Part shown: piece after piece, positions 22,299 through 61,816 of the stretch
How the letters are laid out: every line of letters starts with the position of its first letter
Position numbering within the stretch: position 1 is the first letter of the stretch
DNA from: Eledone cirrhosa
Taxonomy: Eukaryota
NCBI GenBank assembly: GCA_964016885.1
Contig: OZ024741.1
Location: 121,520,001 to 121,584,000, forward strand
Reading direction: 5' to 3'
DNA: 64,000 bases
Translations under genes and position numbers: made by a program
Notes under the pieces: model-generated
The model's input: only the letters and a program-made list of their open reading frames with translations
What the model was told of the DNA's origin: nothing
Database searches by the model: none

Positions 22299-22300
<2 letters not shown>

Positions 22301-25300
22301 TTTCTTTATTGGCCACAAGGGCTGACATCAAGAAAAACATCACAGACGGAACAGGACGGAACGATGTGGGTTTTGTGCGTGTAAATATTTTTTATTATTT
22401 ATATCCCGCCGAGGTTGACTTTGCCTTTCATCCTTACGGGGGTCGATAAAATAAAGTACCAGTAATGCACTGGGTAATTTGCTGGCCTTGTGCCTAAAGT
22501 AGAAACAATTATTTATATAAGAAAAGAAAAAAGACATAAAACATATATATATATAAACAATAAAATGAAAATTGAAACAATGAAACATTCCCCAATAGAG
22601 GGGAAACCTCCGAGGGTTACTCGTGGCGAAAACCACACAAAAGACCACGGCCACCCTGACTACCAGGGCAAGCGCCCTCTCTCAATATTTCCATCTCTCA
22701 AACTACAGAGGTATATTCATAGTGGTGCCGTTCACTCGGACCATTCTCGCTACATTCACCCACCTTTCAACAAACTTGCTAGAAAGCAGCACTTGCCTCT
22801 CCACCCTGATTTTCCTCTTCAAGTGAAACTTGAAAAAGTTAATCAGGGATTCGCCGAAGAGGAAAGTGTTTGTCTTTAATCCTTTTAACCTTGTCCACCA
22901 CACAATCTCTTTCGCCATGGCCACCAGGCAGATGAAAACCGCCTGCCCTTCCTCCTCAAAGGAAGACGGCGAGACCATCTGCACAATGGACTCAGTCGAC
23001 AACCGGATCAGTCCCACACGTGACAGCAACTGTTCGACATAGCTCCACAAGTCATCAATGCTCGGGCACTGAACGAGTGCGTGCACAACGGTTTCGTCGC
23101 TATGCGCGCATCTCGGACAGGCTCGGCTGACGGCACTCCGTGCCTGTAGAGCTTATCTCGAACCGGCAGCGCTCCCTGGTAGCACTGCCAGGCCAGGGAT
23201 TTTTGGAAGTTATCCATAGGCCCCGGGCTGAAAGTTCTCCGGAAGAGAGCAAGCAGCTGATCTTCTTCGACACCCAGGATCTCTCCGAGAATGTCGTCGC
23301 TCTTCCCCTCCACTAGTCCTCTATAGCACGCCGAGGTGGATGTTCGACCGATACTGGTGCCCAACTGGGAGAGGGCAGTGAGCGCCTGGAGACATTCCAG
23401 TTTCCAAGCGCTATCCATCGGTCTTTTTCTGACCCAGGACTGCAGCTCCGTCAAGGTGACGAGCTGTGGGAAAATGTGCCTTGCGAACGGCGACCACACC
23501 CGTTCACCATCAAGGAAGCACCAGAGATGTCGCAGCCTCAGCGCATGTTTGCACATCATCAGCCATGGCATGCCCAGTCCTCCACGCAACGGGTGTTGAC
23601 AGCAGATGGATCGTCTGACCATGGGAGCGCGTCCCTTCCACAAAAAGCGGAAGAGGAGGCGCTCCATTTTGGTGAGAGTTGGGCTGGAGCCAGGGACGAC
23701 GGTGGGGCGGTAGCAGATGACGGATGCGATGTACGCATTCACCACTTTCGCCCGGCCTTTCAGAGACAGCTTCCTCTCAGCCCATTTCTGGGTGAGGGAA
23801 GCCACCCTGCTCGTCATCTCGTTCCAGTTTTTCTCCATCTGGGGGTCTGGTCCAAACCAGACCCCGAGCAATTTAACCGGTCTGTCCGTCCAACGCCCCA
23901 CGACGCTGTCGGATGGCATGGACATGCCTCTCCAGGTACCTAGCTGCAAGCCCACCGACTTTCGCTGGTTTATCTTTGCTCCTGTCACCGCTTCGTATTC
24001 CTTGAGAGCAGTGCCGAGCATCTGGACGTGTCTGGTGCTCGACACCACCACGGTGACGTCGTCAGCGTAAGCCGACTCGGATTTCCCGCACCCTAGTTCG
24101 CGTGGGACGGCCCTCATCGCCCCCAGTTTGTGCAGTAACGGCTCGAGGATCAAGGCGTACAAGAGGGACGAGAGGGGACAACCCTGGCGGACTGAGCGCA
24201 TAATGCTGAACGGCTGCGACAGGTGACCGTTCACCCTCACAACTGAGCAAATGTCGCTGTACATTGCTGCGATCCAACGCCTGAAAACGGGCCCGAAACC
24301 GGCTGCCTCGAGGACCGCCGCCAAGTACCGATGGTCCACCCTATCGAATGCTTTGGATTGATCCAAGTTGATCAGGGCCCCACCCTTGCCAGGTTCCTTA
24401 ACCACCCTCTCTATGATGTATCGCATGAGGTGGAGGTTATCGTGTATGGATCTGTCCGGAATGGCGCATGTCTGCGCCTCTCCCACCATACCCTTGACGA
24501 CAAGCGCCAACCTCGTTGCTAACACCTTGGCCAAAATCTTGAACTCTGCGTTTAGCAGGGTTATGGGCCTGAAATTATCAATAACATCCCCCTTGTTCGG
24601 GTCTTTTCTCAGCAGCGCCACTGCTCCCCGGCTCACAAAACTGGGAATGCTCCCGTTCTGCTGCCAGTTGCAGTAGACGTCTGACAAGAGGTCACCGAAC
24701 AAGTCTGGCATAAATGTATAAAGCTCGTAGGGCAGACCAACCGAACCTGGCGATTTACCCCTCGTGCAGTTAGCCATCGCTTCCCGTATTTCACCGGCTG
24801 TTATTGGCTTTTCGCAACACTGTGCTGCGGTCGTCGAGAGCCGAGGCAGTCCGTCGAGGTATGCACTGAAGTCCATGCCCCGATCCGGGCCGCCGCCGCT
24901 CCCGAACAGTTCAGCAAAGTGCTGCTGAAAAGCTTCACATCCGCTCGGGTTCGAGCATCACGCACCCGTTTTGGTCAGGCAAAGACCGAATTGTGGCTTT
25001 GTTGCCACGTCGCGCCTCTGCCACCCGGGCCCATTGGACGGCTTTTGTCCCCTCGTGTTTCAGAGCACGCGCTCTAGCTCTGACAACGCAGCCTTCGTGT
25101 TTTGCGTTGAAGAATTGGTCGAGTGCCAATCTCGCCGCAAGCACGTCGGTTGCGATGCCTGTCCTAAACGCCTCTTCTAGCTTTCTGACTAGCTCTCCCT
25201 CTACACTATTTTCCTCTATCACTACTCCTTTGCTAAACCTAATCGACTCTACTTTAATTGCCCTTTTCAGGGCGAACCACCACCTGTTGTTGACGACCGC

Positions 25301-28300
25301 TCCCGTCAACTCCCGCTTAACTAATACGCTAATCCGGTCTCTGTAGGCTTGCGCGCCGGGAAAGACGCGTTCAGCTTCCAGTAACCAGGCCCTTGTCTAT
25401 GAAGTCTGTCTATGTCGATCTAACAGATCACAAATTTGTGGTCTGTGTAGTCGACTATTTTAAATTGTGGACAACTTATACTAGCCTTATCTAGTTCCCT
25501 GCAGAATACCCTATCGAGATACGATCTGGATGACCCGATACGGTTTGTCCATGTCCACATTGGCACATTCGGGTGATCCAGTCGATACCTGTCAGACAGT
25601 TCAAAACCTCTGAGCAGGTTGGTGAGGCTCTTGCACCCTCCTCCCCTATCCACTAGCCCCACACGATCCCAGCGTGCATCCAAGATACAGTTCCATCGCC
25701 CACTAAAACTAAAGAGCGGGACGTTCCAAGAAAGGTCTCTAGACGTCTGAAGAAATCAGGCCGTCCTGCCCCTGTTGGGGCGTAGACGGCTACTAGCCTG
25801 AAAGCATTGCCTTCGCTGTCGGTCACGTCCAGCACCACCGACTTACCTTCTGGGTCCAGGAAGATGGCCCGTATCGCGAGATCCAAGCCTCTCCGAAAAA
25901 GGACGGCAACCCCTCCCCCCGATCCTGGACGGCTGGGAGATGCGTATACATCGTAGCCGCCGAAGATCTGTGCGAAGGCCCGTGCCTCGGAGATTCTGGT
26001 TTCACTGATGGCCACCACATCTATGTTTAGTGACCTGAGGTCATTGAGCAGGTGACCCTGCTTCCAAGATGACCCCAGGCCACGTGCATTTATACTGCCT
26101 ATTCTGAGTACAGCCATGTTGGATGAGCAACGGGGCAAATGAGAAAGGGTCACTTACCTTGTTCGTGTGGTGAAGGGACAGTAGAACCGTCCCTTTCGCT
26201 GGTCATGGGTGTTTCCAAGAGGATGTCAGTGTATATCCTCTTGGTAACCGTCCCTCTGAAGTCTCCAACTGCGTTGGGGAATTTTTGTTTTAAAGGATTG
26301 TACTGTTCTATTGAGATTTCGATGATGCTTATGTTTGTCGGGAGATTTCTTGGTGTTGGTGGGGTGTAGTGGTTTTTTTCGTGATGTCTGTGTGCTGCTT
26401 TATATATTTTATGAGTTCTTTTTTTGCTGTGTTTATGGCTGTGTACTTTTTTGGGGGAGGGGTGATTTTGTTGCCGTTTTCTTCTTGTTGCTGTTTGGTG
26501 TGTGTGTCTTGTTGTGTTTGCGTTGTTGGTGTTTGTGGTGGTGTTGCTGCAAGTTTCCTTGCTGCCTTTACCCCTCTTTGTATGCTTTCGCTTTTGGAGG
26601 GTGAATCTAAGGGTTTTTTTGTTTTTTGTTTTTTTTGTGGCAGACTGTTTGCCACGTCACTCCTGCCTCAAACTCCATGTCGGATTCTGTGGCATCTGGG
26701 AGGGGTATGTGCTCCACGGCGGTTGGTGGTGGTAGTGGAGCCCTCTTCGGCAATTTTGTTGCTGGTGTAGCTATTTCAAATGTAGCTATTGGTGTTGCCG
26801 TTACTGATAATGCTGCTTTAGTTATCCGTGGCCTTGGTACGGGTGCTACGGACGTTGCCCTCCTACTCACCGTGGAAGGGGCTTCTTCGTTTGTTGCCTG
26901 TCCTGCTCTTGGTAGCAACGGACCAGGTATTGGAAGGAGAGGGGCCCTCTTCGGTGTCTTCTGCGGGCAAAAGGCCTTGAGGTGACCTTTCGACCCACAG
27001 AGATAACATTTTGGCCGTCTTCCTTCTACACTTATAGGGAATAGGAGTCCTTCCTCGAAGTCTATGATATCGGGGATAGCCTCGATACATTCTTGGTCAG
27101 CTTGTATAAGCATTTGCATACCTATACCTGACCAGTTCTCTCTCCCTATTTTTTCTACTTGCAGCATGGTCGCCATGTTCTCAATTCCAGCAAGGACAGA
27201 CGCGGCCAGCCAAGGTATGGGCATGTCGGGTGGGACCTGGGTCACTTTGACCCTCACCATTTTCTGCCCGCAGTAGGAGGGCACCAAGACTAACTCCTCA
27301 CTCTTTAGGGTTTCCAAAGAGTGAGACTTTGCTTCCTGGGGGTGGCGAAAAGTACGTCTACTGTGGCGTACTTTCTGCCTCGGGTGATGTAGGTTTTGCG
27401 TACCCAGACGCACCCCAAGGCCTTTTGGATTTGAGCCTCCGTGGCTCTCTCCACTCGATGTGAGATTTTGCTTACGGTGCGGTAAGTCACCGTCCGTAGC
27501 TGCTGGTCCTTGAAAAAATCGGGTGGAGGTTTCAGGGAAACTCTATTTGCGCTTCTTGTCACCATGGCCCTTGCGACTGCCATCTCCTCCTCTGTGACTA
27601 ACACTGTCTCGATATTTCGGGCGACACCTGCAAAAGAACTGGTCCCTTTTTCAGCAGCACCACTATTGCTGCCGCTACTGGTCTTACTGGTGGTGCTGAG
27701 ATCGCTATTACAGGTATCGGTGTCATTGTTGTTCTTTTCGCTGGTACAGTTGTTGGTGTTGTTTTCGTTGATACTGTTGCTGATGTTACTGTTATTGTGG
27801 CTGTTGTTATTATTGTTGTTTTTGTTGATACTGTTCCTACTATTATTGTTGTTGTGGCTGTTGTTATTGTCATTGTTATTGTCGTTCTCGACCTTACCGC
27901 TGTTATTTTTGTTATTGTCGTTCTCGACTTTACCGCTGTTATTTTTGTTATTGTCGTTCTCGACTTTACCGCTGTTATTTTTGGTGTTGTTGTTGGTGAT
28001 GTTGTTGGTGTTATTGTTGGTGTTGTTTGTGCCAGAAATATTTGGTAATTTTAAATCTGTAACAATCTTTTTTTCCTTTGTAATATTTTCGTTTATATTT
28101 ACCTCCGCTGGAACGCTGTCTTGTTGACATGCTGATAAAGTCTCCCTCTCTCTGTGTTGTTTGACAGTGCTCTCTCTCTTTCTTGTGTTATCCATGTTGA
28201 AATTTTTCAGAAAAATATTTTTACACAAATACGAATACGACACCCCGTAAAGGGGTACCGTATTATTTACTAGTGAACCCCTGTATTAGGTGGGTCACTT

Positions 28301-28400
28301 CTAAACTTTTATCAAATTTAAAACTTGAATAAAGGTTTAGAACGGTTGAAAAAGAGGTAAAACGTTGAAAAAGACTGGAGGCGATAAGAAGCGTGGCTTC
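22299..28400 (-). mobile_element. Full-length but decayed L1/Tx1-type LINE (family B): ORF1 ~28194-26151, ORF2 ~26117-22703, several frameshifts; (ATT)n on both sides
   Basis: SINARG/ISETR/VYAP/YLDR/TDH APE motifs, YADD RT, ORF1 CYLCGSKGHLKAFC knuckle; clearly homologous to the 45648/51720 copies; (AAT)n at 22259-22298 and 28407-28433. Confidence 0.93.
22403..22513 (+). mobile_element. 5'-truncated SINE nested antisense in the LINE 3' UTR
   Basis: Core and tail match the SINE at 45411-45608, reversed. Confidence 0.85.
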
Positions 28401-28482
28401 ACCAACAATAATAATAATAATAATAATAATAATGGTTTCTTATATATACACACACCATCCATATATATATATATATATATGG

Positions 28483-29311: not shown

Positions 29312-29816
<505 letters not shown>

Positions 29817-35755: not shown

Positions 35756-35998
35756 GGAGAAAAAATTGACCCTAGTACTGAACTGGTATTTTATTCATCG
35801 ACTTAGAAAGGATGAGAGGCAAAGTTGACTTAGTCGTGATTTGAACTAAGAGTGCAAAGAACCGGGACAAATACCATGAAGCATTCTATTGGATGTTTTA
35901 AAGATACTGTCAATTCACTCGACTCCTGACAATTGGAGACTAAAAGTGATAAAACACGCCACCACCCCAGCACTCTGAACAACACCGCCACCACCACC

Positions 35999-38008: not shown

Positions 38009-38197
38009 GAATAATTGTTTCTACTTTAGGCACAAGGCCAGCAATTATCCCAGTCCATTACTGGTACTTACTTTATTTTATTGACCCCGTAAGGATGAAA
38101 GGCAAAGTTAACCTCGGCGGCATTTGAACTCAGAATGGCAACGGCCGTAACTCTATGCGTCAAAGCATGGTGTCCGACCCTCTACCGATACTGCCAA
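38009..38197 (-). mobile_element. tRNA-derived SINE copy
   Basis: A/B boxes, core, tail. Confidence 0.88.
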
Positions 38198-38421
38198 TGC
38201 AGTGAACAACACACATACACCCGCACACATATACGCATATACATATATACATATACCTATACATACATACACAGACACAGACACACACATAGTTATTTAA
38301 ATATATGTATATATTATATTATATATATTATTATTTAAATAAATTCTCAACACAGCTGGATGCTACCTAGGTTTTTCAAACCCTATTCTAGCATACGTCT
38401 TAGAAACCTTAGGTAGCATAT

Positions 38422-45410: not shown

Positions 45411-45608
45411 TAATAATAATAATAATAGTTTATACTTTAGGCACAAGGCCATCAATTACCCAGTACATTACTGGTACTTTATTTTATCGACCCCGTAAGG
45501 ATGAAAGGCAAAGTTAACCTCGGCGGGATTTGAACTCAGACTGTAAAGGGACGTAACTATGCTAGAAATGTAGTCCAACCCTCTACCGATACTGCCAATT
45601 CACCGCCC
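45411..45608 (-). mobile_element. Full-length tRNA-derived SINE directly downstream of the LINE (ATT)n tail
   Basis: GGGCGGTGAAT-TGGCAGTATCGG (A box)...GAGTTCAAATCC (B box)-CGCC, core, tail CCTTGTGCCTAAAGTATAAACT(ATT)n. The core resembles the Meta/MESC SINE domain (from memory). Confidence 0.9.
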
Positions 45609-45649
<41 letters not shown>

Positions 45650-45909
45650 TTTCTTTATTAACCACAAGGGTTTACATAAAGTAGACATTAAGGACAGTGC
45701 AGGACAATGCAGGACGGTACAAATGGGCATTTCTGCGTGTAAAAAAACAAAAACAGAGGATGTAACAAAAATAACAATGAAAATAACAATGAAAAATTCC
45801 CCAATAGGGGGGAGACTTCGGAGGGACATTTGTGGAGAAAGCCCAGTAAAAAGCCACAATGACCCTGACCACCAAGGCAAGTGCCCTCTCCCAGTTTTCC
45901 ACCTTTAGT

Positions 45910-48900
45910 TTACAGATATATACTCAGAGTCGGCCCATTCACTCGGGCCATTCTTGCTTCTCTCACCCATCTTTCAACAAAATGCTGGGAAGAGAGCACT
46001 TCCTTCTCTACTCTGATTTTCCTTTTCAAATGAAATTTGAAAAAGTCAATCAGAGCATCACCGAAGAGGTAAGTGCTTGTCTTCAGCCCTTTCAAACGTG
46101 TCCACCATACTATCTCTTTCGCCATGGCCACCAGACAGATAAAAACTGCCTGCCCTTCCCGGCTAAAGGAGGAGGGCGGGGCAATCCTCACGATAGACTC
46201 AGATGATAGCTGGATCCGTCCTAAACGCGACAGCAGGTGTTCGACATAAACCCACAAGTCAGCAATTTTCGGACACTGGACGAGTGCGTGCAGGACGGTT
46301 TCGTCGCCCTGCGCGCATCTCGGACATGCCCGGCTGACGGCACCTCCATGCCTGTAGAGTTTATCCCGAACTGGCAAGGCTCCTCGGTAGCACTGCCAGG
46401 CCAGAGATTTCTGGAAGTTGTCCATAGGCCCTGGCCCGAAAGTTCTTCCGAAGAGATTGGCTAGTTGATTTTCGTCGACGCCTAGAGTTTCCCCAAGTAC
46501 GTCGTCGCTCTTCCCCTCCACTAATCCTCTATAGAACGCCGAGGTGGAGTTTCCACCGATCACATTGCCCGATTGGTCGAGGGCTGTGAGCGCCTGAAGA
46601 CATTCCAGTCTCCAGGCGCTCCCTCTCGGTCTTCGCTTGACCCAGGACTGCAGCTCCGTCAAGGAAACGAGCTGGGGAAAAACGCGTCTAGCAAACGGCG
46701 ACCACACCTGATCACCGTCGAGGAAGAGGTGGAGATGTCGTAGCCTGAGCGCGTGCCTGCGCATCATCAGCCACGGCATGCCCAGCCCTCCACGTAGCGG
46801 GTGTTGACAACAGATGGACCGCCTGACCATCGGAGCACGTCCCTTCCACAAAAAGCGAAAGAGCAAACGCTCCAGCGCAGTCAGGCGAGGCTTAGGACAA
46901 GGTACGACGGTTAGGCGGTAGCAGATGACAGACGCGATGTACGCGTTAGCCACCTCCGCTCGACCTTTCAGGGATAGCTTCCTCTCCGCCCATTTCTGGG
47001 TGAGAGAAGCCACCCTGCTCGTCACCTCGTCCCAGTTTTTGTCCGTCTGGAGGTCCGGACCGAACCAGACCCCTAGCAATTTAACCGGTCCGTCCGTCCA
47101 GCGCCCGACGACGCTGTTGGACGGCATGGACCTGCCTCTCCAGGTGCCGAGCTGCAGGCCCACTGACTTTTCCTGGTTGATCATTGCTCCTGTCACCGCT
47201 TCGTATTCTCTTAGTGTAGTGCCGATCGCCTCGATGTGTTTGGCGTTCGACACCACTACGGTGACATCGTCCGCATATGCTGACACGGATCTTCCGCATC
47301 CTAGTTCGCGCGGGACTCCCCTCAACGTCTCCAGTTTGTGCAGTAATGGCTCGAGAGTCAATACGTACAAGAGGGACGAGAGGGGACATCCTTGGCGGAC
47401 CGAGCGCATGATGTTGAACGGTTCCGACAGGTGACCGTTCACTCTCACCACAGAGCAGATGTCGCTGTGCATGGCAGCGATCCAGCCTCTGAAGACGGGC
47501 CCAAAGCCAGCCGCCCTCAGGACTGCCGCTAGGTAACGATGGTCGACCCTATCGAAAGCTTTCGACTGATCTAAATTGATCAAGGACCCACCCGTGCCAG
47601 GTTCCCTAGCTACCCTCTCTACGATGTATCGCATGAGGTGGAGGTTGTCGTGGATGGATCTGTCGGGAATGGCGCATGTCTGCGCCTCTCCCACCAGACC
47701 ACCAACGACAAGCGCCAACCTCTTTGCTAGCACCTTGGCCAAAATCTTAAACTCTGTGTTTAGCAGAGTTATGGGCCGGAAATTGTCTATGTTATCCCCC
47801 TTGTTCGGATCCTTTCTCAGCAGTGCCACCGCTCCTCGGCTCACAGAACTGGGAATTCTCCCGTTCTGTTGCCAGTTGCAGTAGACGTCCGCCAAGAGGC
47901 CTCCGAACAAGTCTGGCATCTGTACGTAAAGTTCATAGGGCAGACCATCCAAACCAGGCGATTTACCCCTTGTGCAGCCAGTCATTGCCTCCCGTACTTC
48001 AGCGGCTGTTATCGGCTTTTCGCAACACTTCGCCTCAGTGGCCGAGAGCCGCGGCAGTCCGTCGAGGTAGACACTAAAGTCCATCCCTCTACCCGGCCCC
48101 CCGCTGCCCCCGAACAGCTGAGCGAAGTGTCGCTGAAAAGCTTCACACATTTGCCCGGGATCGAGTAGCATGCGCCCGTCGTGGTCCACCAAAGACCGGA
48201 TCGTGGCTTTGTTGCCACGACGCGCCTCCGCCACTCGGGCCCATTGAACGGCTTTCGTCCCCTCGTGTCTGAGAGCACGCACCCTAGCTCTGACAACGCA
48301 GCCTTCGTGCTTTGCATTGAAGAATTGGTCAAGGGCCAATTTCGCCGCAAGCACGTCGGTCGCAATGCCTTTGCTAAGCGCCTCGTCTAATTTTCTAACT
48401 AGTTCTCCCTCTGCTCTATTTTTCTCTATTGTTAAAGCCTTACTAAACCTAATCGATTCTATTCTAATCGCTCTTTTCAGAGCAAACCACCACTTGTTGT
48501 TGACGATGGCCCCCGTCAACGCCCGCTTAACTAGTTCGCTAATCCGGTCTCTGTAGGCCTTGCGCGCTGGTAAGGACGCGTTTAGCTTCCAGTAGCCGGG
48601 TCCTCGTCTATGAAGCCTATCTAAGTCAAGCACACAGATCACGAATTTGTGGTCCGTGTAGCTGACTATCTTGAATTGTGGACAGCCTATGCTAGACCTA
48701 TCTATTTCCCTACAAAATACTCTATCTAGATATGATCTGGATGACCCTATGCGGTTTGTCCAAGTCCACATTGGCACATTCGGGAAATCCAATCGGTACC
48801 TGTCAGACAGTTCAAAACGCCTGAGCAGGTTGGTGAGGCTCTTGCACCCTCCACCCCTATCCGCTAATCCCACACAGTCCCAGCGTGCATCTAAGATCCC

Positions 48901-49329
48901 GTTCCAGTCGCCCACTAACACTAAAGAGCGCGACGTTCCAAGAAAGGTCTCCAGACGCCGGAAGAAATCAGGCCGCCCTGCTCCTGTCGGGGCATAGACG
49001 GCCACTAGCCTGAAAGCTTGCCCGTCTCCGCTGGTCACGTCCAGCACCACCAGCTTACCCTCTGGGTCCAGGAAGATGGCCCGTATGGCGAGATCCAAAC
49101 CTCTCCGAAAAAGCACAGCAACTCCTCCACCCGATCCAGGACGGCTGGGAGATGCGTACACATCGTAGCCGCCGAAGATCGGTGCGAAGGCCCGTGCTTC
49201 GGAGATTCTGGTCTCGCTGATGGCCACTACATCTATGTTTAGTGACCTGAGGTCGTTGAGCAGGTGACCCTGCTTCCATGACGACCCCAAGCCACGCGCA
49301 TTTATGCTGCCTATTCTGAGTGAGGTCAT
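45910..49329 (-). CDS. LINE ORF2: APE endonuclease, reverse transcriptase and CCHC zinc finger, 1139 aa, intact
   Basis: SINARG, ISETR, VYAP, VGDWN, YLDR, TDH; FRPITLLN, LDQSKAFDRV, RQGCPLS, YADD, KLLG; CPRC...ETVLHALVQC. Confidence 0.97.
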   Translation of the reverse strand: MTSLRIGSINARGLGSSWKQGHLLNDLRSLNIDVVAISETRISEARAFAPIFGGYDVYASPSRPGSGGGVAVLFRRGLDLAIRAIFLDPEGKLVVLDVTSGDGQAFRLVAVYAPTGAGRPDFFRRLETFLGTSRSLVLVGDWNGILDARWDCVGLADRGGGCKSLTNLLRRFELSDRYRLDFPNVPMWTWTNRIGSSRSYLDRVFCREIDRSSIGCPQFKIVSYTDHKFVICVLDLDRLHRRGPGYWKLNASLPARKAYRDRISELVKRALTGAIVNNKWWFALKRAIRIESIRFSKALTIEKNRAEGELVRKLDEALSKGIATDVLAAKLALDQFFNAKHEGCVVRARVRALRHEGTKAVQWARVAEARRGNKATIRSLVDHDGRMLLDPGQMCEAFQRHFAQLFGGSGGPGRGMDFSVYLDGLPRLSATEAKCCEKPITAAEVREAMTGCTRGKSPGLDGLPYELYVQMPDLFGGLLADVYCNWQQNGRIPSSVSRGAVALLRKDPNKGDNIDNFRPITLLNTEFKILAKVLAKRLALVVGGLVGEAQTCAIPDRSIHDNLHLMRYIVERVAREPGTGGSLINLDQSKAFDRVDHRYLAAVLRAAGFGPVFRGWIAAMHSDICSVVRVNGHLSEPFNIMRSVRQGCPLSSLLYVLTLEPLLHKLETLRGVPRELGCGRSVSAYADDVTVVVSNAKHIEAIGTTLREYEAVTGAMINQEKSVGLQLGTWRGRSMPSNSVVGRWTDGPVKLLGVWFGPDLQTDKNWDEVTSRVASLTQKWAERKLSLKGRAEVANAYIASVICYRLTVVPCPKPRLTALERLLFRFLWKGRAPMVRRSICCQHPLRGGLGMPWLMMRRHALRLRHLHLFLDGDQVWSPFARRVFPQLVSLTELQSWVKRRPRGSAWRLECLQALTALDQSGNVIGGNSTSAFYRGLVEGKSDDVLGETLGVDENQLANLFGRTFGPGPMDNFQKSLAWQCYRGALPVRDKLYRHGGAVSRACPRCAQGDETVLHALVQCPKIADLWVYVEHLLSRLGRIQLSSESIVRIAPPSSFSREGQAVFICLVAMAKEIVWWTRLKGLKTSTYLFGDALIDFFKFHLKRKIRVEKEVLSSQHFVERWVREARMARVNGPTLSIYL

Positions 49330-49364
49330 GTTTAAAATAGAGTGGAAAAGATGGGAAAGACCAC

Positions 49365-51465
49365 TTACCGTATTTTTGGTAGAGGAGGGATGGTTTTTAC
49401 ATCCCTTTTCACTTGATCGTCTGGTGAAGGGACCGTTGAATCGTCCCTTCGGCTGGTCGTCGGCTCTTCTAAGAGAATGTCTGAATATACTCTTCGATTA
49501 ATGGTTCCTCCTAGGTCCCTGAAATCACCAACTGCGTTGGGGAATTTCGTTTTAATGTTTGTGTATTGTTTCTGTGCTATTTTTAGCAGTCTTATGTTAG
49601 TTGGCGTTTTGATTGGTGCTGGTATTATGTAGTCCTGTTGTGAAATGTCTGTGTGTTCAATTATGTAAGTCATTAGTTTCTTGTTGTGTGTGTTTATTGC
49701 CGTGCATTTGTTTTTCTGGGGGTGGGGTGTGGTTCTGCTATTTTCTTGTCGTTGTTGCTGGGTGTGTGTGTTTTGTTGTTGTGTTTGCGATGTTGGTGCT
49801 TGTGGTGGTGGTGTTGAAGGTGTTGTTGGCGGTGGGGTTGTCGCCGGTGGTGATGGTGGTGCTGGTGTGGGTGGTGATGGTGTTGGTGGTGTTGCTGCTG
49901 TGGGTCTCTTTGCAGTAGACTTTACCCTTTTCTCATTTCTTTCCTCCCTTTTCAAAGGCGACGATGCGCTGCTTCTGCGTTTGTGCCTTCTTGAGACCTT
50001 TTGCCATCCCTCTCCCACCTCACACTCCATGTCTGATTCTGTAAGGTCGGGGAGGGGTACCAGCTCCACTCTTTCACTTGTTGTTGTTGGTGATGTTTGC
50101 ACTGGAGTCTCTGTTGCAGCTGCATTTGGTATTGCTGTTGTTGTTGTTAATATTTCCACTGCTGCTGCTGTCTTTGATTTCCGTGGAGTGGGTATGGGTG
50201 CCACGGACCTATCGTTCCTGGTTGCCGCTTGTCCTGTTGCTGGTAGCCGTGGAACCGGATTCGGGAGGAGGGGGGTTTTCTCCTTTCTCAGGGTCTTCTC
50301 GTTGCAGAAGGCCCTGAGGTGAGTCTTCGATCCACAGCGAAAGCATTTCGGGCGTTTGCCCTCAACACTTATGGGCAGTTGAGTGCCGTTATCGAAGTCT
50401 ATCACATCCGGGATAGCTTCGATGCACTCCTGGTTGGTTTGGATTAGCATCTCAATGGAGGAGCCGACCCAATCTTCTCTTACTTTTTTCTGTACTTGCA
50501 GTACAGTTGTTTTGTCCTCGATTCCGACGAGGACAGACGCGGCCAGCCAAGAAGGGGTCATTCCGGGGGGGACGTGGGTCAGTTTGACCCTCACAATTTT
50601 TTGCCCGCAGTAGGAGGGCACCAACACCATTTCCTCGCTCCTTAGGGTCACTACTGATTGGGCCTTTGCCTCCTGGGGTGTGGCAAAAAGTACGTCTACG
50701 GTGGCGTATTTTTTGCCTCGGGTGATGTGCGTTTTCCTCTGCCACACAGACCCCAAGGCTTTTTGTATTTGGGCCTCTGTGGCTCTTTCCACCCTACGGG
50801 ATTTTGTACTTACTGTACGGTACGTGACCGTACAGTGCTCTTGGGTTTCGAAAAAATTTTTCGCTGCCTTGCAGATTGCTCGGTGTCCGTTCTTTGTCAC
50901 CATCTTCTTCGCTTCCTCTAATTCCTCATTTGTTATGAGGATTGTTTCCAGGTTTTTCGCAATACCTGCAAATGAGATTGGTTTTTCTCTGCTGTTGTTG
51001 TTGTCGTCAGAGCTGCTGGTACTTTTGTTGTTGCTGCAGGTACTACGACTACTGCCTCCGCCGCTGTTGCTGTGGTTGTTGTTGGTGTTGCTGCTGCTAA
51101 TGCTGTTGTTGTTTATGCTGCTGGTGATGCTGTTGCGGCTGCTACTGTTGTTTTCATTGTCACTGTTGCTGTTGTTATTACGGCTGCTACTGCTATTATT
51201 CCTGACGTCAGACGAATGAACTGGGTTTTCGTATTTCCCGCACACCTGTTTCGTCGCTGTCGTCGTCGTCGTGGAGAAACCTTGCACGCTTTGCACGAGA
51301 CTTTTCTTTTCTTTCGTCGCTTGCGAAAGAGAAGGTAGGGAGAGAGACACATTTAAAGAAGGGAGGGAGAGAGACAATCTTCTCTCTCCTGTAGTGATGA
51401 TTGAGGAAGAAGAAGACGGAATGAGTGGGAGTGACGTATGAAATTTTTTTTTTTTTGGTAGCCAT
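49365..51465 (-). CDS. LINE ORF1: N/S-rich N-terminus, RRM-like region, CCHC knuckle, P/T-rich linker; start uncertain
   Basis: CFRCGSKTHLRAFC. First ATG (51465) is one base out of frame across an A13 run; the ORF-track start at 51497 is a TTG. Confidence 0.88.
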
Positions 51466-51677
51466 GTTTTTTGTTTAAAATGAAATTTTGGGTACAAAAC
51501 CCCAATAACTGGCTATTTAACCCCGAAGGGCCAAATAACGGACAGAAAGACCCCTCTCACGAGGAGGAGGGTGTCTTTATCAACAATTTGGTTCAAGTTT
51601 TAAACAATTTACAATTGTTTTAACGGTTAAAAATTACTATACCTTACAGAGCCGAGCCTCCGTCAACCATGGCATTC

Positions 51678-51721
<44 letters not shown>

Positions 51722-51982
51722 TTTCTTTATTAACCACAAGGGTTTACATAAAGTAGACATTAAGGACAGTGCAGGACAATGCAGGACGGTACAAATGGGC
51801 ATTTCTGCGTGTAAAAAAAACAAAAATAGAGGATGTAACAAAAATAACAATGAAAATAACAATGAAAAATTCCCCAATAGGGGGGAGACTTCGGAGGGAC
51901 ATTTGTGGAGAAAGCCCAGTAAAAAGCCACAATGACCCTGACCACCAAGGCAAGTGCCCTCTCCCAGTTTTCCACCTTTAGT

Positions 51983-54900
51983 TTACAGATATATACTCAG
52001 AGTCGGCCCATTCACTCGGGCCATTCTTGCTTCTCTCACCCATCTTTCAACAAAATGCTGGGAAGAGAGCACTTCCTTCTCTACTCTGATTTTCCTTTTC
52101 AAATGAAATTTGAAAAAGTCAATCAGAGCATCACCGAAGAGGTAAGTGCTCGTCTTCAGCCCTTTCAAACGTGTCCACCATACTATCTCTTTCGCCATGG
52201 CCACCAGACAGATAAAAACTGCCTGCCCTTCCCGGCTAAAGGAGGAGGGCGGGGCAATCCTCACGATAGACTCAGATGATAGCTGGATCCGTCCTAAACG
52301 CGACAGCAGGTGTTCGACATAAACCCACAAGTCAGCAATTTTCGGACACTGGACGAGTGCGTGCAGGACGGTTTCGTCGCCCTGCGCGCATCTCGGACAT
52401 GCCCGGCTGACGGCACCTCCATGCCTGTAGAGTTTATCCCGAACTGGCAAGGCTCCTCGGTAGCACTGCCAGGCCAGAGATTTCTGGAAGTTGTCCATAG
52501 GCCCTGGCCCGAAAGTTCTTCCGAAGAGATTGGCTAGTTGATTTTCGTCGACGCCTAGAGTTTCCCCAAGTACGTCGTCGCTCTTCCCCTCCACTAATCC
52601 TCTATAGAACGCCGAGGTGGAGTTTCCACCGATCACATTGCCCGATTGGTCGAGGGCTGTGAGCGCCTGAAGACATTCCAGTCTCCAGGCGCTCCCTCTC
52701 GGTCTTCGCTTGACCCAGGACTGCAGCTCCGTCAAGGAAACGAGCTGGGGAAACACGCGTCTAGCAAACGGCGACCACACCTGATCACCGTCGAGGAAGA
52801 GGTGGAGATGTCGTAGCCTGAGCGCGTGCCTGCGCATCATCAGCCACGGCATGCCCAGCCCTCCACGTAGCGGGTGTTGACAACAGATGGACCGCCTGAC
52901 CATCGGAGCACGTCCCTTCCACAAAAAGCGAAAGAGCAAACGCTCCAGCGCAGTCAGGCGAGGCTTAGGACAAGGTACGACGGTTAGGCGGTAGCAGATG
53001 ACAGACGCGATGTACGCGTTAGCCACCTCCGCTCGACCTTTCAGGGATAGCTTCCTCTCCGCCCATTTCTGGGTGAGAGAAGCCACCCTGCTCGTCACCT
53101 CGTCCCAGTTTTTGTCCGTCTGGAGGTCCGGACCGAACCAGACCCCTAGCAATTTAACCGGTCCGTCCGTCCAGCGCCCGACGACGCTGTTGGACGGCAT
53201 GGACCTGCCTCTCCAGGTGCCGAGCTGCAGGCCCACTGACTTTTCCTGGTTGATCATTGCTCCTGTCACCGCTTCGTATTCTCTTAGTGTAGTGCCGATC
53301 GCCTCGATGTGTTTGGCGTTCGACACCACTACGGTGACATCGTCCGCATATGCTGACACGGATCTTCCGCATCCTAGTTCGCGCGGGACTCCCCTCAACG
53401 TCTCCAGTTTGTGCAGTAATGGCTCGAGAGTCAATACGTACAAGAGGGACGAGAGGGGACATCCTTGGCGGACCGAGCGCATGATGTTGAACGGTTCCGA
53501 CAGGTGACCGTTCACTCTCACCACAGAGCAGATGTCGCTGTGCATGGCAGCGATCCAGCCTCTGAAGACGGGCCCAAAGCCAGCCGCCCTCAGGACTGCC
53601 GCTAGGTAACGATGGTCGACCCTATCGAAAGCTTTCGACTGATCTAAATTGATCAAGGACCCACCCGTGCCAGGTTCCCTAGCTACCCTCTCTACGATGT
53701 ATCGCATGAGGTGGAGGTTGTCGTGGATGGATCTGTCGGGAATGGCGCATGTCTGCGCCTCTCCCACCAGACCACCAACGACAAGCGCCAACCTCTTTGC
53801 TAGCACCTTGGCCAAAATCTTAAACTCTGTGTTTAGCAGAGTTATGGGCCGGAAATTGTCTATGTTATCCCCCTTGTTCGGATCCTTTCTCAGCAGTGCC
53901 ACCGCTCCTCGGCTCACAGAACTGGGAATTCTCCCGTTCTGTTGCCAGTTGCAGTAGACGTCCGCCAAGAGGCCTCCGAACAAGTCTGGCATCTGTACGT
54001 AAAGTTCATAGGGCAGACCATCCAAACCAGGCGATTTACCCCTTGTGCAGCCAGTCATTGCCTCCCTTACTTCAGCGGCTGTTATCGGCTTTTCGCAACA
54101 CTTCGCCTCAGTGGCCGAGAGCCGCGGCAGTCCGTCGAGGTAGACACTAAAGTCCATCCCTCTACCCGGCCCCCCGCTGCCCCCGAACAGCTGAGCGAAG
54201 TGTCGCTGAAAAGCTTCACACATTTGCCCGGGATCGAGTAGCATGCGCCCGTCGTGGTCCACCAAAGACCGGATCGTGGCTTTGTTGCCACGACGCGCCT
54301 CCGCCACTCGGGCCCATTGAACGGCTTTCGTCCCCTCGTGTCTGAGAGCACGCACCCTAGCTCTGACAACGCAGCCTTCGTGCTTTGCATTGAAGAATTG
54401 GTCAAGGGCCAATTTCGCCGCAAGCACGTCGGTCGCAATGCCTTTGCTAAGCGCCTCGTCTAATTTTCTAACTAGTTCTCCCTCTGCTCTATTTTTCTCT
54501 ATTGCTAAAGCCTTACTAAACCTAATCGATTCTATTCTAATCGCTCTTTTCAGAGCAAACCACCACTTGTTGTTGACGATGGCCCCCGTCAACGCCCGCT
54601 TAACTAGTTCGCTAATCCGGTCTCTGTAGGCCTTGCGCGCTGGTAAGGACGCGTTTAGCTTCCAGTAGCCGGGTCCTCGTCTATGAAGCCTATCTAAGTC
54701 AAGCACACAGATCACGAATTTGTGGTCCGTGTAGCTGACTATCTTGAATTGTGGACAGCCTATGCTAGACCTATCTATTTCCCTACAAAATACTCTATCT
54801 AGATATGATCTGGATGACCCTATGCGGTTTGTCCAAGTCCACATTGGCACATTCGGGAAATCCAATCGGTACCTGTCAGACAGTTCAAAACGCCTGAGCA

Positions 54901-55402
54901 GGTTGGTGAGGCTCTTGCACCCTCCACCCCTATCCGCTAATCCCACACAGTCCCAGCGTGCATCTAAGATCCCGTTCCAGTCGCCCACTAACACTAAAGA
55001 GCGCGACGTTCCAAGAAAGGTCTCCAGACGCCGGAAGAAATCAGGCCGCCCTGCTCCTGTCGGGGCATAGACGGCCACTAGCCTGAAAGCTTGCCCGTCT
55101 CCGCTGGTCACGTCCAGCACCACCAGCTTACCCTCTGGGTCCAGGAAGATGGCCCGTATGGCGAGATCCAAACCTCTCCGAAAAAGCACAGCAACTCCTC
55201 CACCCGATCCAGGACGGCTGGGAGATGCGTACACATCGTAGCCGCCGAAGATCGGTGCGAAGGCCCGTGCTTCGGAGATTCTGGTCTCGCTGATGGCCAC
55301 TACATCTATGTTTAGTGACCTGAGGTCGTTGAGCAGGTGACCCTGCTTCCATGACGACCCCAAGCCACGCGCATTTATGCTGCCTATTCTGAGTGAGGTC
55401 AT
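51983..55402 (-). CDS. LINE ORF2 (APE-RT-zinc finger), 1139 aa, intact
   Basis: As copy 1; one amino-acid difference seen (KALAIEK vs KALTIEK). Confidence 0.97.
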   Translation of the reverse strand: MTSLRIGSINARGLGSSWKQGHLLNDLRSLNIDVVAISETRISEARAFAPIFGGYDVYASPSRPGSGGGVAVLFRRGLDLAIRAIFLDPEGKLVVLDVTSGDGQAFRLVAVYAPTGAGRPDFFRRLETFLGTSRSLVLVGDWNGILDARWDCVGLADRGGGCKSLTNLLRRFELSDRYRLDFPNVPMWTWTNRIGSSRSYLDRVFCREIDRSSIGCPQFKIVSYTDHKFVICVLDLDRLHRRGPGYWKLNASLPARKAYRDRISELVKRALTGAIVNNKWWFALKRAIRIESIRFSKALAIEKNRAEGELVRKLDEALSKGIATDVLAAKLALDQFFNAKHEGCVVRARVRALRHEGTKAVQWARVAEARRGNKATIRSLVDHDGRMLLDPGQMCEAFQRHFAQLFGGSGGPGRGMDFSVYLDGLPRLSATEAKCCEKPITAAEVREAMTGCTRGKSPGLDGLPYELYVQMPDLFGGLLADVYCNWQQNGRIPSSVSRGAVALLRKDPNKGDNIDNFRPITLLNTEFKILAKVLAKRLALVVGGLVGEAQTCAIPDRSIHDNLHLMRYIVERVAREPGTGGSLINLDQSKAFDRVDHRYLAAVLRAAGFGPVFRGWIAAMHSDICSVVRVNGHLSEPFNIMRSVRQGCPLSSLLYVLTLEPLLHKLETLRGVPRELGCGRSVSAYADDVTVVVSNAKHIEAIGTTLREYEAVTGAMINQEKSVGLQLGTWRGRSMPSNSVVGRWTDGPVKLLGVWFGPDLQTDKNWDEVTSRVASLTQKWAERKLSLKGRAEVANAYIASVICYRLTVVPCPKPRLTALERLLFRFLWKGRAPMVRRSICCQHPLRGGLGMPWLMMRRHALRLRHLHLFLDGDQVWSPFARRVFPQLVSLTELQSWVKRRPRGSAWRLECLQALTALDQSGNVIGGNSTSAFYRGLVEGKSDDVLGETLGVDENQLANLFGRTFGPGPMDNFQKSLAWQCYRGALPVRDKLYRHGGAVSRACPRCAQGDETVLHALVQCPKIADLWVYVEHLLSRLGRIQLSSESIVRIAPPSSFSREGQAVFICLVAMAKEIVWWTRLKGLKTSTYLFGDALIDFFKFHLKRKIRVEKEVLSSQHFVERWVREARMARVNGPTLSIYL

Positions 55403-55437
55403 GTTTAAAATAGAGTGGAAAAGATGGGAAAGACCAC

Positions 55438-57538
55438 TTACCGTATTTTTGGTAGAGGAGGGATGGTTTTTACATCCCTTTTCACTTGATCGTCTGGTGA
55501 AGGGACCGTTGAATCGTCCCTTCGGCTGGTCGTCGGCTCTTCTAAGAGAATGTCTGAATATACTCTTCGATTAATGGTTCCTCCTAGGTCCCTGAAATCA
55601 CCAACTGCGTTGGGGAATTTCGTTTTAATGTTTGTGTATTGTTTCTGTGCTATTTTTAGCAGTCTTATGTTAGTTGGCGTTTTGATTGGTGCTGGTATTA
55701 TGTAGTCCTGTTGTGAAATGTCTGTGTGTTCAATTATGTAAGTCATTAGTTTCTTGTTGTGTGTGTTTATTGCCGTGCATTTGTTTTTCTGGGGGTGGGG
55801 TGTGGTTCTGCTATTTTCTTGTCGTTGTTGCTGGGTGTGTGTGTTTTGTTGTTGTGTTTGCGATGTTGGTGCTTGTGGTGGTGGTGTTGAAGGTGTTGTT
55901 GGCGGTGGGGTTGTCGCCGGTGGTGATGGTGGTGCTGGTGTGGGTGGTGATGGTGTTGGTGGTGTTGCTGCTGTGGGTCTCTTTGCAGTAGACTTTACCC
56001 TTTTCTCATTTCTTTCCTCCCTTTTCAAAGGCGACGATGCGCTGCTTCTGCGTTTGTGCCTTCTTGAGACCTTTTGCCATCCCTCTCCCACCTCACACTC
56101 CATGTCTGATTCTGTAAGGTCGGGGAGGGGTACCAGCTCCACTCTTTCACTTGTTGTTGTTGGTGATGTTTGCACTGGAGTCTCTGTTGCAGCTGCATTT
56201 GGTATTGCTGTTGTTGTTGTTAATATTTCCACTGCTGCTGCTGTCTTTGATTTCCGTGGAGTGGGTATGGGTGCCACGGACCTATCGTTCCTGGTTGCCG
56301 CTTGTCCTGTTGCTGGTAGCCGTGGAACCGGATTCGGGAGGAGGGGGGTTTTCTCCTTTCTCAGGGTCTTCTCGTTGCAGAAGGCCCTGAGGTGAGTCTT
56401 CGATCCACAGCGAAAGCATTTCGGGCGTTTGCCCTCAACACTTATGGGCAGTTGAGTGCCGTTATCGAAGTCTATCACATCCGGGATAGCTTCGATGCAC
56501 TCCTGGTTGGTTTGGATTAGCATCTCAATGGAGGAGCCGACCCAATCTTCTCTTACTTTTTTCTGTACTTGCAGTACAGTTGTTTTGTCCTCGATTCCGA
56601 CGAGGACAGACGCGGCCAGCCAAGAAGGGGTCATTCCGGGGGGGACGTGGGTCAGTTTGACCCTCACAATTTTTTGCCCGCAGTAGGAGGGCACCAACAC
56701 CATTTCCTCGCTCCTTAGGGTCACTACTGATTGGGCCTTTGCCTCCTGGGGTGTGGCAAAAAGTACGTCTACGGTGGCGTATTTTTTGCCTCGGGTGATG
56801 TGCGTTTTCCTCTGCCACACAGACCCCAAGGCTTTTTGTATTTGGGCCTCTGTGGCTCTTTCCACCCTACGGGATTTTGTACTTACTGTACGGTACGTGA
56901 CCGTACAGTGCTCTTGGGTTTCGAAAAAATTTTTCGCTGCCTTGCAGATTGCTCGGTGTCCGTTCTTTGTCACCATCTTCTTCGCTTCCTCTAATTCCTC
57001 ATTTGTTATGAGGATTGTTTCCAGGTTTTTCGCAATACCTGCAAATGAGATTGGTTTTTCTCTGCTGTTGTTGTTGTCGTCAGAGCTGCTGGTACTTTTG
57101 TTGTTGCTGCAGGTACTACGACTACTGCCTCCGCCGCTGTTGCTGTGGTTGTTGTTGGTGTTGCTGCTGCTAATGCTGTTGTTGTTTATGCTGCTGGTGA
57201 TGCTGTTGCGGCTGCTACTGTTGTTTTCATTGTCACTGTTGCTGTTGTTATTACGGCTGCTACTGCTATTATTCCTGACGTCAGACGAATGAACTGGGTT
57301 TTCGTATTTCCCGCACACCTGTTTCGTCGCTGTCGTCGTCGTCGTGGAGAAACCTTGCACGCTTTGCACGAGACTTTTCTTTTCTTTCGTCGCTTGCGAA
57401 AGAGAAGGTAGGGAGAGAGACACATTTAAAGAAGGGAGGGAGAGAGACAATCTTCTCTCTCCTGTAGTGATGATTGAGGAAGAAGAAGACGGAATGAGTG
57501 GGAGTGACGTATGAAATTTTTTTTTTTTTGGTAGCCAT
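55438..57538 (-). CDS. LINE ORF1, copy 2; same A13 start anomaly
   Basis: Translation matches copy 1. Confidence 0.88.
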
Positions 57539-57750
57539 GTTTTTTGTTTAAAATGAAATTTTGGGTACAAAACCCCAATAACTGGCTATTTAACCCCGAA
57601 GGGCCAAATAACGGACAGAAAGACCCCTCTCACGAGGAGGAGGGTGTCTTTATCAACAATTTGGTTCAAGTTTTAAACAATTTACAATTGTTTTAACGGT
57701 TAAAAATTACTATACCTTACAGAGCCGAGCCTCCGTCAACCATGGCATTC

Positions 57751-57794
<44 letters not shown>

Positions 57795-61744: not shown

Positions 61745-61816
<72 letters not shown>

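What the first reader, a model, noticed from the sequence alone, without database searches (positions are those of the whole stretch)
45411..45675. SINE shares its 3' terminal signature with the Tx1 LINE: candidate Tx1-dependent SINE
Seen: the SINE tail CCTTGTG-CCTAAAGT-AGAAA-CA-(ATT)n aligns without gaps to LINE family B CCTTGTG-GCCAATAA-AGAAA-TC-(ATT)n and family A CCTTGTG-GTTAATAA-AGAAA-TC-(ATT)n, i.e. CCTTGTG-N8-AGAAA-N2-(ATT)n. The copy at this locus reads ATAAA in place of AGAAA; the copies at 19461, 22403 and 38009 have AGAAA. Here a full SINE head directly abuts the LINE tail in the same orientation. Known: stringent LINEs mobilise SINEs that share their 3' end, whereas L1-group elements usually rely on poly(A). 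Inference: this abundant tRNA-SINE is driven by an L1/Tx1 enzyme through a sequence-specific 3' motif.
Basis: partly seen in the sequence, partly recalled or inferred. Interest (0 to 1): 0.75.

Follow-up and report, generated by a model that had tools for sequence, protein, structure and literature searches.

The report
SINE hitchhiking on ATT-targeting Tx1 LINEs
A very abundant short jumping repeat ends in the same 22-base signal, and sits at the same kind of ATT site, as a group of intact L1/Tx1-type jumping genes, which likely copy it, probably by recognising a small predicted RNA hairpin plus the ATT end.

Summary
The SINE (45427-45609, minus) and nine 3' ends of this genome's L1/Tx1-type LINEs share CCTTGTG-N8-AGAAA-N2. 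Nine other LINE ends score far lower in a 3'-anchored test.

The SINE's '(ATT)n tail' is mostly target duplication: 43 of 120 random copies have 10-21 bp duplications (control 1.9), and 37 of the 43 start ATTAT. The ATT-tailed CR1-type rival leaves no such duplication. A sister Tx1 clade has the same motif but sits in TATC/TA repeats; SINE tails followed by ATTA number 141,954 against 3 followed by TATC. So motif and ATT end likely act together.

Against: the head-to-tail contact is no commoner than at any ATT run (3 of 38 vs 9 of 83). The hairpin is lost in longer SINE folds. Duplications were clear in few Tx1 copies. The LINEs prefer long ATT arrays, the SINE short ATTAT sites.

Tail-sharing L1-clade pairs are in print for plants and an alga, and Tx1-driven SINEU for crocodilians; my searches found no animal tail-sharing Tx1 pair. 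This scan reported the same pair at other loci of this genome (8 notes seen).

The parts
45427..45609 (-). Full-length SINE, short subfamily (about 183 nt)
   Evidence: 5 of 183 differences from the majority of itself and its 29 closest relatives
45586..45597 (-). A-box-like motif of the SINE head
   Evidence: box consensus recalled; only weak similarity to 13 genomic tRNAs, best z 3.0
45526..45537 (-). B-box-like motif of the SINE head
   Evidence: box consensus recalled
45427..45448 (-). SINE 3' terminal 22 nt shared with the Tx1-type LINEs (this copy carries ATAAA-CT)
45440..45450 (-). Predicted 3-bp hairpin with CUUGU loop in the SINE tail
   Evidence: pair counts 68, 70, 68 of 73; pairing probability 0.85-0.88 in 30-nt context, 0.03-0.09 in 100-180 nt
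45412..45426 (-). (ATT)5 behind the SINE: 3' copy of the target site
45612..45647 (-). (ATT)12 between the LINE A 3' end and the SINE head
45648..51677 (-). LINE A copy 1, full length (6030 nt), L1/Tx1-type
45648..45672 (-). LINE A 3' terminal motif: 4-bp hairpin with CUUGU loop, AATAAA, GAAA
45910..49329 (-). ORF2, 1139 aa: AP endonuclease, reverse transcriptase, C-terminal zinc finger; open frame
   Evidence: Pfam PF03372, PF00078, PF13966; best solved relative human L1 ORF2p, E 3e-52; motifs GDWN, YLDR, TDHK, YADD present
49365..51512 (-). ORF1 reading frame (stop to stop; true start not determined) with a CX2CX4HX4C zinc knuckle
   Evidence: no Pfam family
51678..51719 (-). (ATT)14 linker between the two LINE A copies
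51720..57750 (-). LINE A copy 2, head to tail with copy 1, 99.9% identical
   Evidence: (5 mismatches, 1 gap in 6092)
57751..57792 (-). (ATT)14 at the 5' side of the LINE A dimer
22299..28406 (-). LINE B, related family (81% to A over ORF2), frames broken, (ATT)n at both ends, same 3' motif
22403..22507 (+). 5'-truncated SINE inserted antisense in the LINE B 3' UTR, with an ATTAT-starting duplication of about 11 nt
19467..19652 (-).
38016..38201 (-).

Best explanation
This non-coding SINE shares its last 22 bases and its ATTAT insertion site with an intact, ATT-repeat-associated clade of L1/Tx1-type LINEs, and is likely copied by their ORF2 protein, which is predicted to select RNA by a small CUUGU-loop hairpin followed by an AUU end. 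Steps: (1) Pol III makes the SINE RNA from its A/B boxes (inferred). (2) ORF2p of the ATT clade binds the terminal hairpin-plus-GAAA signal (inferred from conservation with stem changes). (3) The endonuclease nicks the strand complementary to ATTAT; the freed 3' end pairs with AUUAU at the RNA end and primes reverse transcription (inferred from the footprint and from known target-primed reverse transcription). (4) A staggered second nick gives a 10-21 bp duplication that starts ATTAT (shown for the SINE). (5) Every insertion leaves new ATTAT sites, so SINEs, these LINEs and Dong-like elements pile up in the same repeats (pile-ups shown). At this locus the LINE A dimer likely landed later in the ATT run in front of an older SINE. 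Odds: driver is the ATT clade about 0.8; the hairpin motif is actively required about 0.55.
For: 3'-anchored matrix: 9 of 9 Tx1-type ends 7.0-16.4 bits, 9 of 9 other LINE ends at most 1.7. The LINE tail pattern has 16,285 exact genomic matches, reversed control 0, and is kept in families whose ORF2 DNA is only about 70% identical. Stem pairs 1-3 form in 48, 49, 45 of 49 distinct Tx1 tail variants and 68, 70, 68 of 73 SINE tails. Pair 2 is C-G in the LINEs and G-C in the SINE; pair 3 is A-T in family A and G-C in the others. SINE ends are followed by ATTAT in 102 of 123 random copies; duplications >= 10 bp in 43 of 120 (control mean 1.9, max 5) and in 22 of 29 young copies. 33 of 33 full-length LINE A copies have (ATT)4+ at the 5' side; two truncated young copies show unique 18-19 bp duplications (L113, L114). 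SINE tail + ATTA 141,954 vs + TATC 3. Ages overlap: a SINE subfamily lies 0-2.7% from its own majority; the best LINE A copies are 98.4-99.96% identical to the window copy, and 26 of 35 have an open ORF2 frame; older SINEs (median 8.5%) match older ATT-clade families in the tree.
Against: The shared stretch is short (13-17 of 22 identical). Unanchored local alignment does not single Tx1 out: family A p 0.20, while a Dong-like end hits the SINE interior at p 0.023 and a CR1-type end hits the long subfamily's C-rich stretch at p < 0.003. Three of the nine Tx1 ends (D, D2, E) were found with a pattern that contains the motif, so their scores are partly circular. The SINE hairpin is absent from the predicted fold at 51 and 81 nt and falls to probability 0.03-0.09 in 100-180 nt context. 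The stem changes amount to two or three independent events, and mismatched stems occur. Duplications >= 10 bp were found in only 4 of 33 apparently truncated ATT-clade LINE copies (control 2.7), though many 5' boundaries there were wrong because a subfamily with another ORF1 was missing from the library. The LINEs sit in long ATT arrays, the SINE mostly at short ATTAT sites (40 of 43 duplications not pure ATT), so the exact driver family is not identified. No expression or binding data.
Confidence: 0.7

Rival explanations
1. The ATT-clade enzyme drives the SINE, but in a relaxed way: only the AUU end (pairing with the nicked primer) matters, and the shared 22 nt are a relic of the tail the SINE once captured from a Tx1 element, kept in the LINEs for 3'-end processing (AATAAA).
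For: The TATC/TA clade carries the same motif yet almost no SINE sits at TATC, so the motif is not sufficient. The SINE lacks the AATAAA. The hairpin is not predicted in long SINE context.
Against: The SINE keeps loop, pairing and spacing to the end while changing stem letters. The loop and stem are conserved across divergent LINE families, whose upstream UTR is not.
Confidence: 0.15
2. An unsampled LINE family (for example L2, Nimb/I, Rex1 or a low-copy CR1 or Tx1 lineage) with a closer tail match is the true partner.
For: The rival survey covers about 1 Mb of random DNA (0.03% of the genome) plus flanks of other loci. The SINE's target is laxer than that of LINE A/B.
Against: In the first 600 kb of random DNA all 59 loose tail-motif matches read as SINE or Tx1-type ends. 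A partner that made over 300,000 copies and a still-young subfamily should itself have recent copies.
Confidence: 0.09
3. The young, abundant CR1-type LINE that also ends in C(ATT)n mobilises the SINE through the shared AUU repeat.
For: Same tail repeat and polarity; many 99-100% identical copies; CR1 is a common SINE partner (PMC3747384, Table 1).
Against: Its 3' end scores -11 bits against the SINE matrix. Of 18 copies with a 5' junction inside the locus, only one gave a match >= 10 bp, an ATT-like repeat inside another CR1 tail; the 5' flanks are not ATT sites (the tail or copy was mis-picked in 2 of the 18).
Confidence: 0.04
4. Dong/R4-like LINEs, which use the same microsatellite, mobilise the SINE.
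For: They are abundant, young and found in the same arrays; a weak local match of one Dong-like end to the SINE interior (p 0.023 among 36 tests).
Against: Their sense-strand tail is (TAA)n, the opposite strand to the SINE's ATT; anchored scores -14.7 and -11.5.
Confidence: 0.02

Closest known systems
Maize/sorghum LINE1-1_ZM (monocot 1a) with ZmSINE2/3; Chlamydomonas L1-1_CR with SINEX-3_CR (PMC3747384: abstract, passages and part 1 of the tables section read; PMC3472496: passages read)
   Same: L1-clade LINE and tRNA SINE share a 3' end; hairpin with conserved loop and compensatory stem changes (monocots).
   Different: Those are plant and algal L1 lineages with 45-80 nt shared; the paper lists (T)n or (A)n 3' repeats for those SINEs. 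Here it is an animal Tx1-type lineage, about 22 nt are shared, and the end is ATT tied to a microsatellite target.
Crocodilian SINEU with Tx1-Mar (PMC4494074: passages and part 3 of 5 of the text read)
   Same: A SINE assigned to a Tx1 driver through shared target preference and overlapping age; weak target preference in some SINE families; tandem insertions.
   Different: SINEU has U1/U2 heads and a poly(A) tail, and the passages I read argue from target, age and 5' heads, not from a shared 3' tail. Here the head has Pol III-type boxes, a 3' motif is shared, and the target is ATT.
Microsatellite-targeting Tx1 elements Kibi (TC)n, Koshi (TTC)n and crocodilian (TTCC)n/(TTTC)n families (passages of PMC4494074)
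   Same: AP-endonuclease LINEs inserted in simple repeats.
   Different: Targets here are (ATT)n and, in the sister clade, TATC/TA repeats; no reference sequence was available for a tree.
Stringent L2-clade elements ZfL2-1, ZfL2-2, UnaL2/UnaSINE (PMC4176376: abstract and Discussion read)
   Same: Model for recognition of a 3' stem-loop, with a specific loop and an exchangeable stem.
   Different: Shown by assay there, only inferred here; the stem here is just 3-4 bp; different clade.
Octopus SINEs OK, OR1, OR2 (Ohshima and Okada 1994; not read, seen only as citations in PMC4824008 and PMC4758252; the name OK is recalled)
   Same: Abundant tRNA-derived SINEs of octopods; this genome's element set resembles the Octopus vulgaris table in PMC13282606 (part 1 of 3 read).
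   Different: No sequence comparison was possible; the SINE family may already be named in Repbase or SINEBase, which I could not search.

Membership tests
L1/Tx1 group of non-LTR retrotransposons | ORF1 plus ORF2 with AP endonuclease, RT and C-terminal zinc finger | tested here: met
L1/Tx1 group of non-LTR retrotransposons | ORF2 closest to L1 among characterised non-LTR proteins | tested here: met
   human L1 ORF2p E 3e-52 over residues 5-854, R2 proteins E 1e-21; the PDB holds few clades
Tx1 clade proper | RT groups with reference Tx1 elements in a tree | not testable with these tools
   no named Tx1 sequence among the 47 homologues
Tx1 clade proper | Target-sequence preference | tested here: met
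   33 of 33 full-length LINE A copies have (ATT)4+ at the 5' side; part of that run may come from the RNA
Tx1 clade proper | ORF1 with CCHC zinc knuckle (feature recalled) | tested here: met
   CX2CX4HX4C at residue 389 of the ORF1 frame
tRNA-derived SINE | Short, non-coding, high-copy, 5'-truncated copies, target duplications | tested here: met
tRNA-derived SINE | Head homologous to a tRNA with A and B boxes | tested here: inconclusive
   box-like motifs present; no ARAGORN or Rfam hit; best z 3.0 against 13 genomic tRNA calls, an incomplete set
Stringent SINE/LINE pair | Shared 3' terminal sequence | tested here: met
   (anchored test); short, 13-17 of 22 identical
Stringent SINE/LINE pair | Conserved 3' stem-loop with compensatory changes | tested here: inconclusive
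   pairs kept and two or three compensatory events; not predicted in long SINE context
Stringent SINE/LINE pair | Same insertion footprint in SINE and LINE | tested here: inconclusive
   same ATT start and polarity; LINE duplications clear in two unique cases only
Stringent SINE/LINE pair | Tail required for mobilisation and bound by ORF2p | not testable with these tools
   needs a retrotransposition or binding assay
MetaSINE / CORE-SINE superfamilies | Conserved central domain | not tested
   by eye no match to the BivaMeta/BivaMD alignments in part 1 of 4 of the PMC4824008 supplement; no formal alignment; CORE consensus not available

The most novel reading that the evidence does not exclude
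Animal Tx1 enzymes are stringent readers of a minimal 3-4 bp CUUGU hairpin, and partner choice works by two keys: the hairpin, common to all Tx1 lineages of this genome, licenses binding, and the terminal repeat (AUU versus UAUC) must pair with the site cut by that lineage's endonuclease. A SINE with over 300,000 copies exploits both keys, and the same design would let one enzyme deliver any RNA carrying a 25-nt tag to ATT repeats.
Probability: 0.4. Interest if true: 0.7.

Novelty: new variant of a known kind. Interest (0 to 1): 0.5.

Why it matters
Ohshima's survey found only three SINEs with L1-clade tails, all in plants or algae, and proposed that stringent recognition is ancestral in the L1 clade (PMC3472496, PMC3747384). 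An animal Tx1 lineage with intact young copies, a 22-nt shared signal and a very abundant partner SINE makes that idea testable in animals. It would also name the driver of a major SINE of what is likely an octopod genome, and explain the pile-ups of SINEs, Tx1 and Dong-like elements in ATT repeats.

Tried and rejected
Adjacency as evidence of partnership or of a chimeric transcript: rejected (3 of 38 vs 9 of 83).

A separate 'family E' as a laxer driver: the pattern has only 68 genomic matches and no further copy of the L209 end was found among my loci.

Duplication count for truncated Tx1 copies: 4 of 33 vs control 2.7; not a fair test, since 5' boundaries were wrong for a subfamily with another ORF1. 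Only 20 of 40 planned extra LINE loci could be read, so this point stays open.

DNA searches with the LINE's last 253 nt and with a near-consensus SINE copy returned no candidates, because common words are skipped. The metagenome scan for relatives with 3' UTRs gave 115 pattern hits, none confirmed. The homologue search gave 47 proteins, one with a source name, none named Tx1. ARAGORN and Rfam found no tRNA in the SINE head.

Sequencing runs: no RNA holder listed. Four runs laid as contigs: X6 and X8 (organisms C, E) cover both SINE and LINE heavily; X5 and X13 cover them thinly and may be contamination; the LINE tails of those organisms could not be read.

Literature: 9 searches with combinations of SINE, Tx1, octopus or cephalopod, tail, stem-loop, stringent, trans-mobiliz, microsatellite, MetaSINE, SINEU. 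None listed an animal tail-sharing Tx1/SINE pair. PMC11481361 (bivalve SINE partners: CR1, CR1-Zenon, L2, Nimb; passages read) and PMC5786205 have no occurrence of Tx1 in the main text; PMC11203168 and PMC8967140 (passages) mention Tx1 only as a family present. Albertin 2015 was not held. Repbase, SINEBase and Dfam entries, Ohshima and Okada 1994/2005, Akasaki 2010, Kojima and Fujiwara 2004 and the supplements of most papers were not seen and may bear on novelty.

Full report
Setting. The window is G000:C2:121520001-121584000 of a 3.0-Gb animal genome. Its mix of SINEs, Dong/R4-like, RTE-like, CR1-like, Penelope and L1/Tx1-like elements resembles the Octopus vulgaris table in PMC13282606, so an octopod is likely; this is inference. 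Clade labels of the rival LINEs are mine, from domain layout and recalled features; Pfam gave only general domains.

The observation. The locus is a head-to-tail dimer of LINE A (57750-51720 and 51677-45648, 99.9% identical), then (ATT)12, the SINE (45609-45427) and (ATT)5, all on the minus strand. LINE B (28406-22299) is 81% identical over ORF2, broken, and also has (ATT)n at both ends.

The LINE. ORF2 (1139 aa) has AP endonuclease, RT and zinc-finger domains and is closest to human L1 ORF2p among solved structures. ORF1 has a CCHC knuckle. Among 35 best-matching copies fetched with both ends, 33 are full length, all 33 have (ATT)4+ at the 5' side, and 26 of 35 have an open frame of at least 1130 aa. 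This is a target-associated, recently active L1/Tx1-type element. Tx1 membership could not be tested by tree.

The motif across Tx1 relatives. A 21-nt tail pattern has 16,285 exact matches in the genome, control 0. Thirty such loci fall into several families down to about 70% identity. A tree of 38 ORF2 3' segments splits them into two clades, each with support 100/100 and midpoint rooting: 24 rows that include families A, B and C, whose tails are followed by ATT where I read them, and 14 rows of families followed by TATC/TA-type repeats. Both clades keep a five-base loop, usually CTTGT, closed by a short stem: pairs 1-4 form in 48, 49, 45 and 28 of 49 distinct tail variants (the G of pair 1 was fixed by the pattern). 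The hairpin is in the predicted fold of the A and B ends.

The SINE. 123 short-subfamily 3' ends lie in 1 Mb of random DNA (100 stretches of 10 kb), about 370,000 copies by extrapolation; 141,954 exact tail-plus-ATTA matches are counted directly. A longer subfamily with an extra palindrome and C-rich stretch ends in the same 26 nt. The head has A- and B-box-like motifs but only weak tRNA similarity. In 73 register-correct tails of 78, stem pairs 1-3 form in 68, 70 and 68, with pair 2 inverted relative to the LINEs. The hairpin is probable in a 30-nt context (0.85-0.88) but not in 100-180 nt (0.03-0.09).

Test against rival LINEs. An RT profile search of all loci held at that point and inspection of 3' ends gave nine non-Tx1 ends, one copy each: three CR1-type, three RTE-type, two Dong-like and one Hero-like; the boundaries of one RTE-type and the Hero-like end are uncertain. 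A 3'-anchored matrix scores the nine Tx1 ends at 7.0-16.4 bits (shuffle p <= 0.0012) and the rivals at -14.7 to +1.7 (best rival shuffle p 0.004). Three Tx1 ends came from the motif-containing pattern; A, B and F did not. Unanchored local alignment is not discriminating. One CR1-type family also ends in C(ATT)n and is young, but only 1 of 18 copies with a readable 5' junction gave a repeat of 10 bp or more, and that one is ATT-like. Dong-like elements end in (TAA)n on their sense strand, the opposite polarity.

Insertion footprint. Without forcing ATT, 102 of 123 SINE ends are followed by ATTAT. Duplications of 10-21 bp (possibly 1-2 bases too long) flank 43 of 120 copies, against a mismatched-pair control of 1.9 (max 5); 37 of the 43 start ATTAT and 40 are not pure ATT. 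The base before is C in 16 of 43, against 16% before ATTAT at large. In the young subfamily 22 of 29 copies have them. The SINE's ATT 'tail' is therefore mainly target sequence. For the LINEs, duplications cannot be read inside pure ATT arrays; two young truncated copies show unique 18-19 bp duplications (L113, L114), but a wider count gave 4 of 33 against a control of 2.7, with faulty 5' boundaries. The LINEs favour long arrays, of which there are 83 per Mb, while the SINE uses short ATTAT sites, of which there are 4,700 per Mb. This mismatch is unexplained; some LINE A copies have a longer ATT run at the 5' than at the 3' side (L166, L174), which suggests that part of the 5' run comes from the RNA.

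Two keys. The TATC/TA clade scores as well as the ATT clade on the SINE matrix, yet SINE tails are followed by TATC only 3 times in the genome. Either the AUU end, pairing with the nicked primer, decides the partner, or finer RNA features do.

Age and this locus. SINE copies lie 1.6-14.8% from the overall majority (median 8.5%, 73 copies); the 30 copies closest to the focal one lie 0-2.7% from their own majority. ATT-clade LINEs run from near-identical to long branches, so activity overlaps. The focal SINE has 5 differences in 183, while the two LINE copies differ by 0.1%, so the dimer likely inserted later into the ATT run in front of the SINE; the order is not certain, because the SINE may come from a variant master. 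SINEs follow LINE A tails no more often than any ATT run (3 of 38 vs 9 of 83), and Dong-like ends (11 of 38) or another LINE A (8 of 38) are commoner neighbours.

Comparison with what is known. SINE/LINE tail sharing is common, but only three L1-clade cases were listed, in maize and Chlamydomonas (PMC3472496, PMC3747384). Tx1-driven SINEU has a poly(A) tail and was assigned by target and age (PMC4494074). Stem-loop recognition has been shown for L2-clade elements (PMC4176376). Nine literature searches listed no animal tail-sharing Tx1/SINE pair; repeat databases were not searchable.

Earlier notes of this scan. After forming my reading I looked up the scan's notes: eight unreviewed reports describe the same pair at other loci of this genome; none in other genomes. 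They are not independent evidence.

Verdict. A real, genome-wide SINE/LINE pairing; driver likely the ATT-associated Tx1-type clade (about 0.8), active recognition of the hairpin plausible (about 0.55). New variant of a known kind; interest 0.5.

Noticed in passing
L303, L307-L310, L317 (C1:18-25 Mb): A LINE A subfamily shares ORF2 and the 3' end with family A (about 95%) from position 2265 on, but has a different 5' module (ORF1 55% identical over its main block); it is also flanked by ATT where read. Looks like a 5' module swap.
   Followed up: partly
L190, L193, L195, L198, L199, L204, L206, L208, L211, L213, L217, L068, L088: Sister Tx1-type clade associated with TATC/TA repeats and stacked in its own tandem chains; L204 shows a unique 20-bp duplication.
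   Followed up: partly
window 10420-12319 (+); L040, L046, L067, L078, L080, L086: Two young Dong/R4-like families end in (TAA)n and often sit tail to tail with Tx1 or SINE copies in the same microsatellite; L067 and L078 hold long open frames (1216 and 1141 aa).
   Followed up: partly
L042:2680-6190; L121-L150: Young CR1-type family with a duplicated 3' end (about 110-nt tandem of the tail) and its own (ATT)4-8 tail, without target duplications.
   Followed up: partly
window 17738-17816, 21799-21858, 35764-35859; L066, L073, L079: Another SINE type shares the central body but continues into a pyrimidine-rich stretch and a different 3' part, so its partner LINE may differ.
   Followed up: no
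window 18584-20090; L074, L085, L087, L088: SINEs stack in same-orientation chains, each inserted at the ATTAT behind the previous tail and sharing the duplication.
   Followed up: partly
window 29595-29670: Short inverted repeat element (CCTTGTG match on both strands at 29602 and 29664), unrelated to the SINE tail.
   Followed up: no
window 933-1640 (+); 61679-62374 (+): A Penelope-like GIY-YIG fragment, and the 3' end of an RTE-like family that ends at (TA)n/(TAGA)n repeats.
   Followed up: no
window 45400-47400, runs X5-X17: The LINE A 3' region is held at word shares of 0.22-0.74 in runs of 13 other coded organisms; relatives, contamination or transfer could not be told apart.
   Followed up: partly
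L261, L263-L271: Many near-identical tRNA-like copies with varied anticodons among the Rfam tRNA hits; possibly the head of another SINE family.
   Followed up: no
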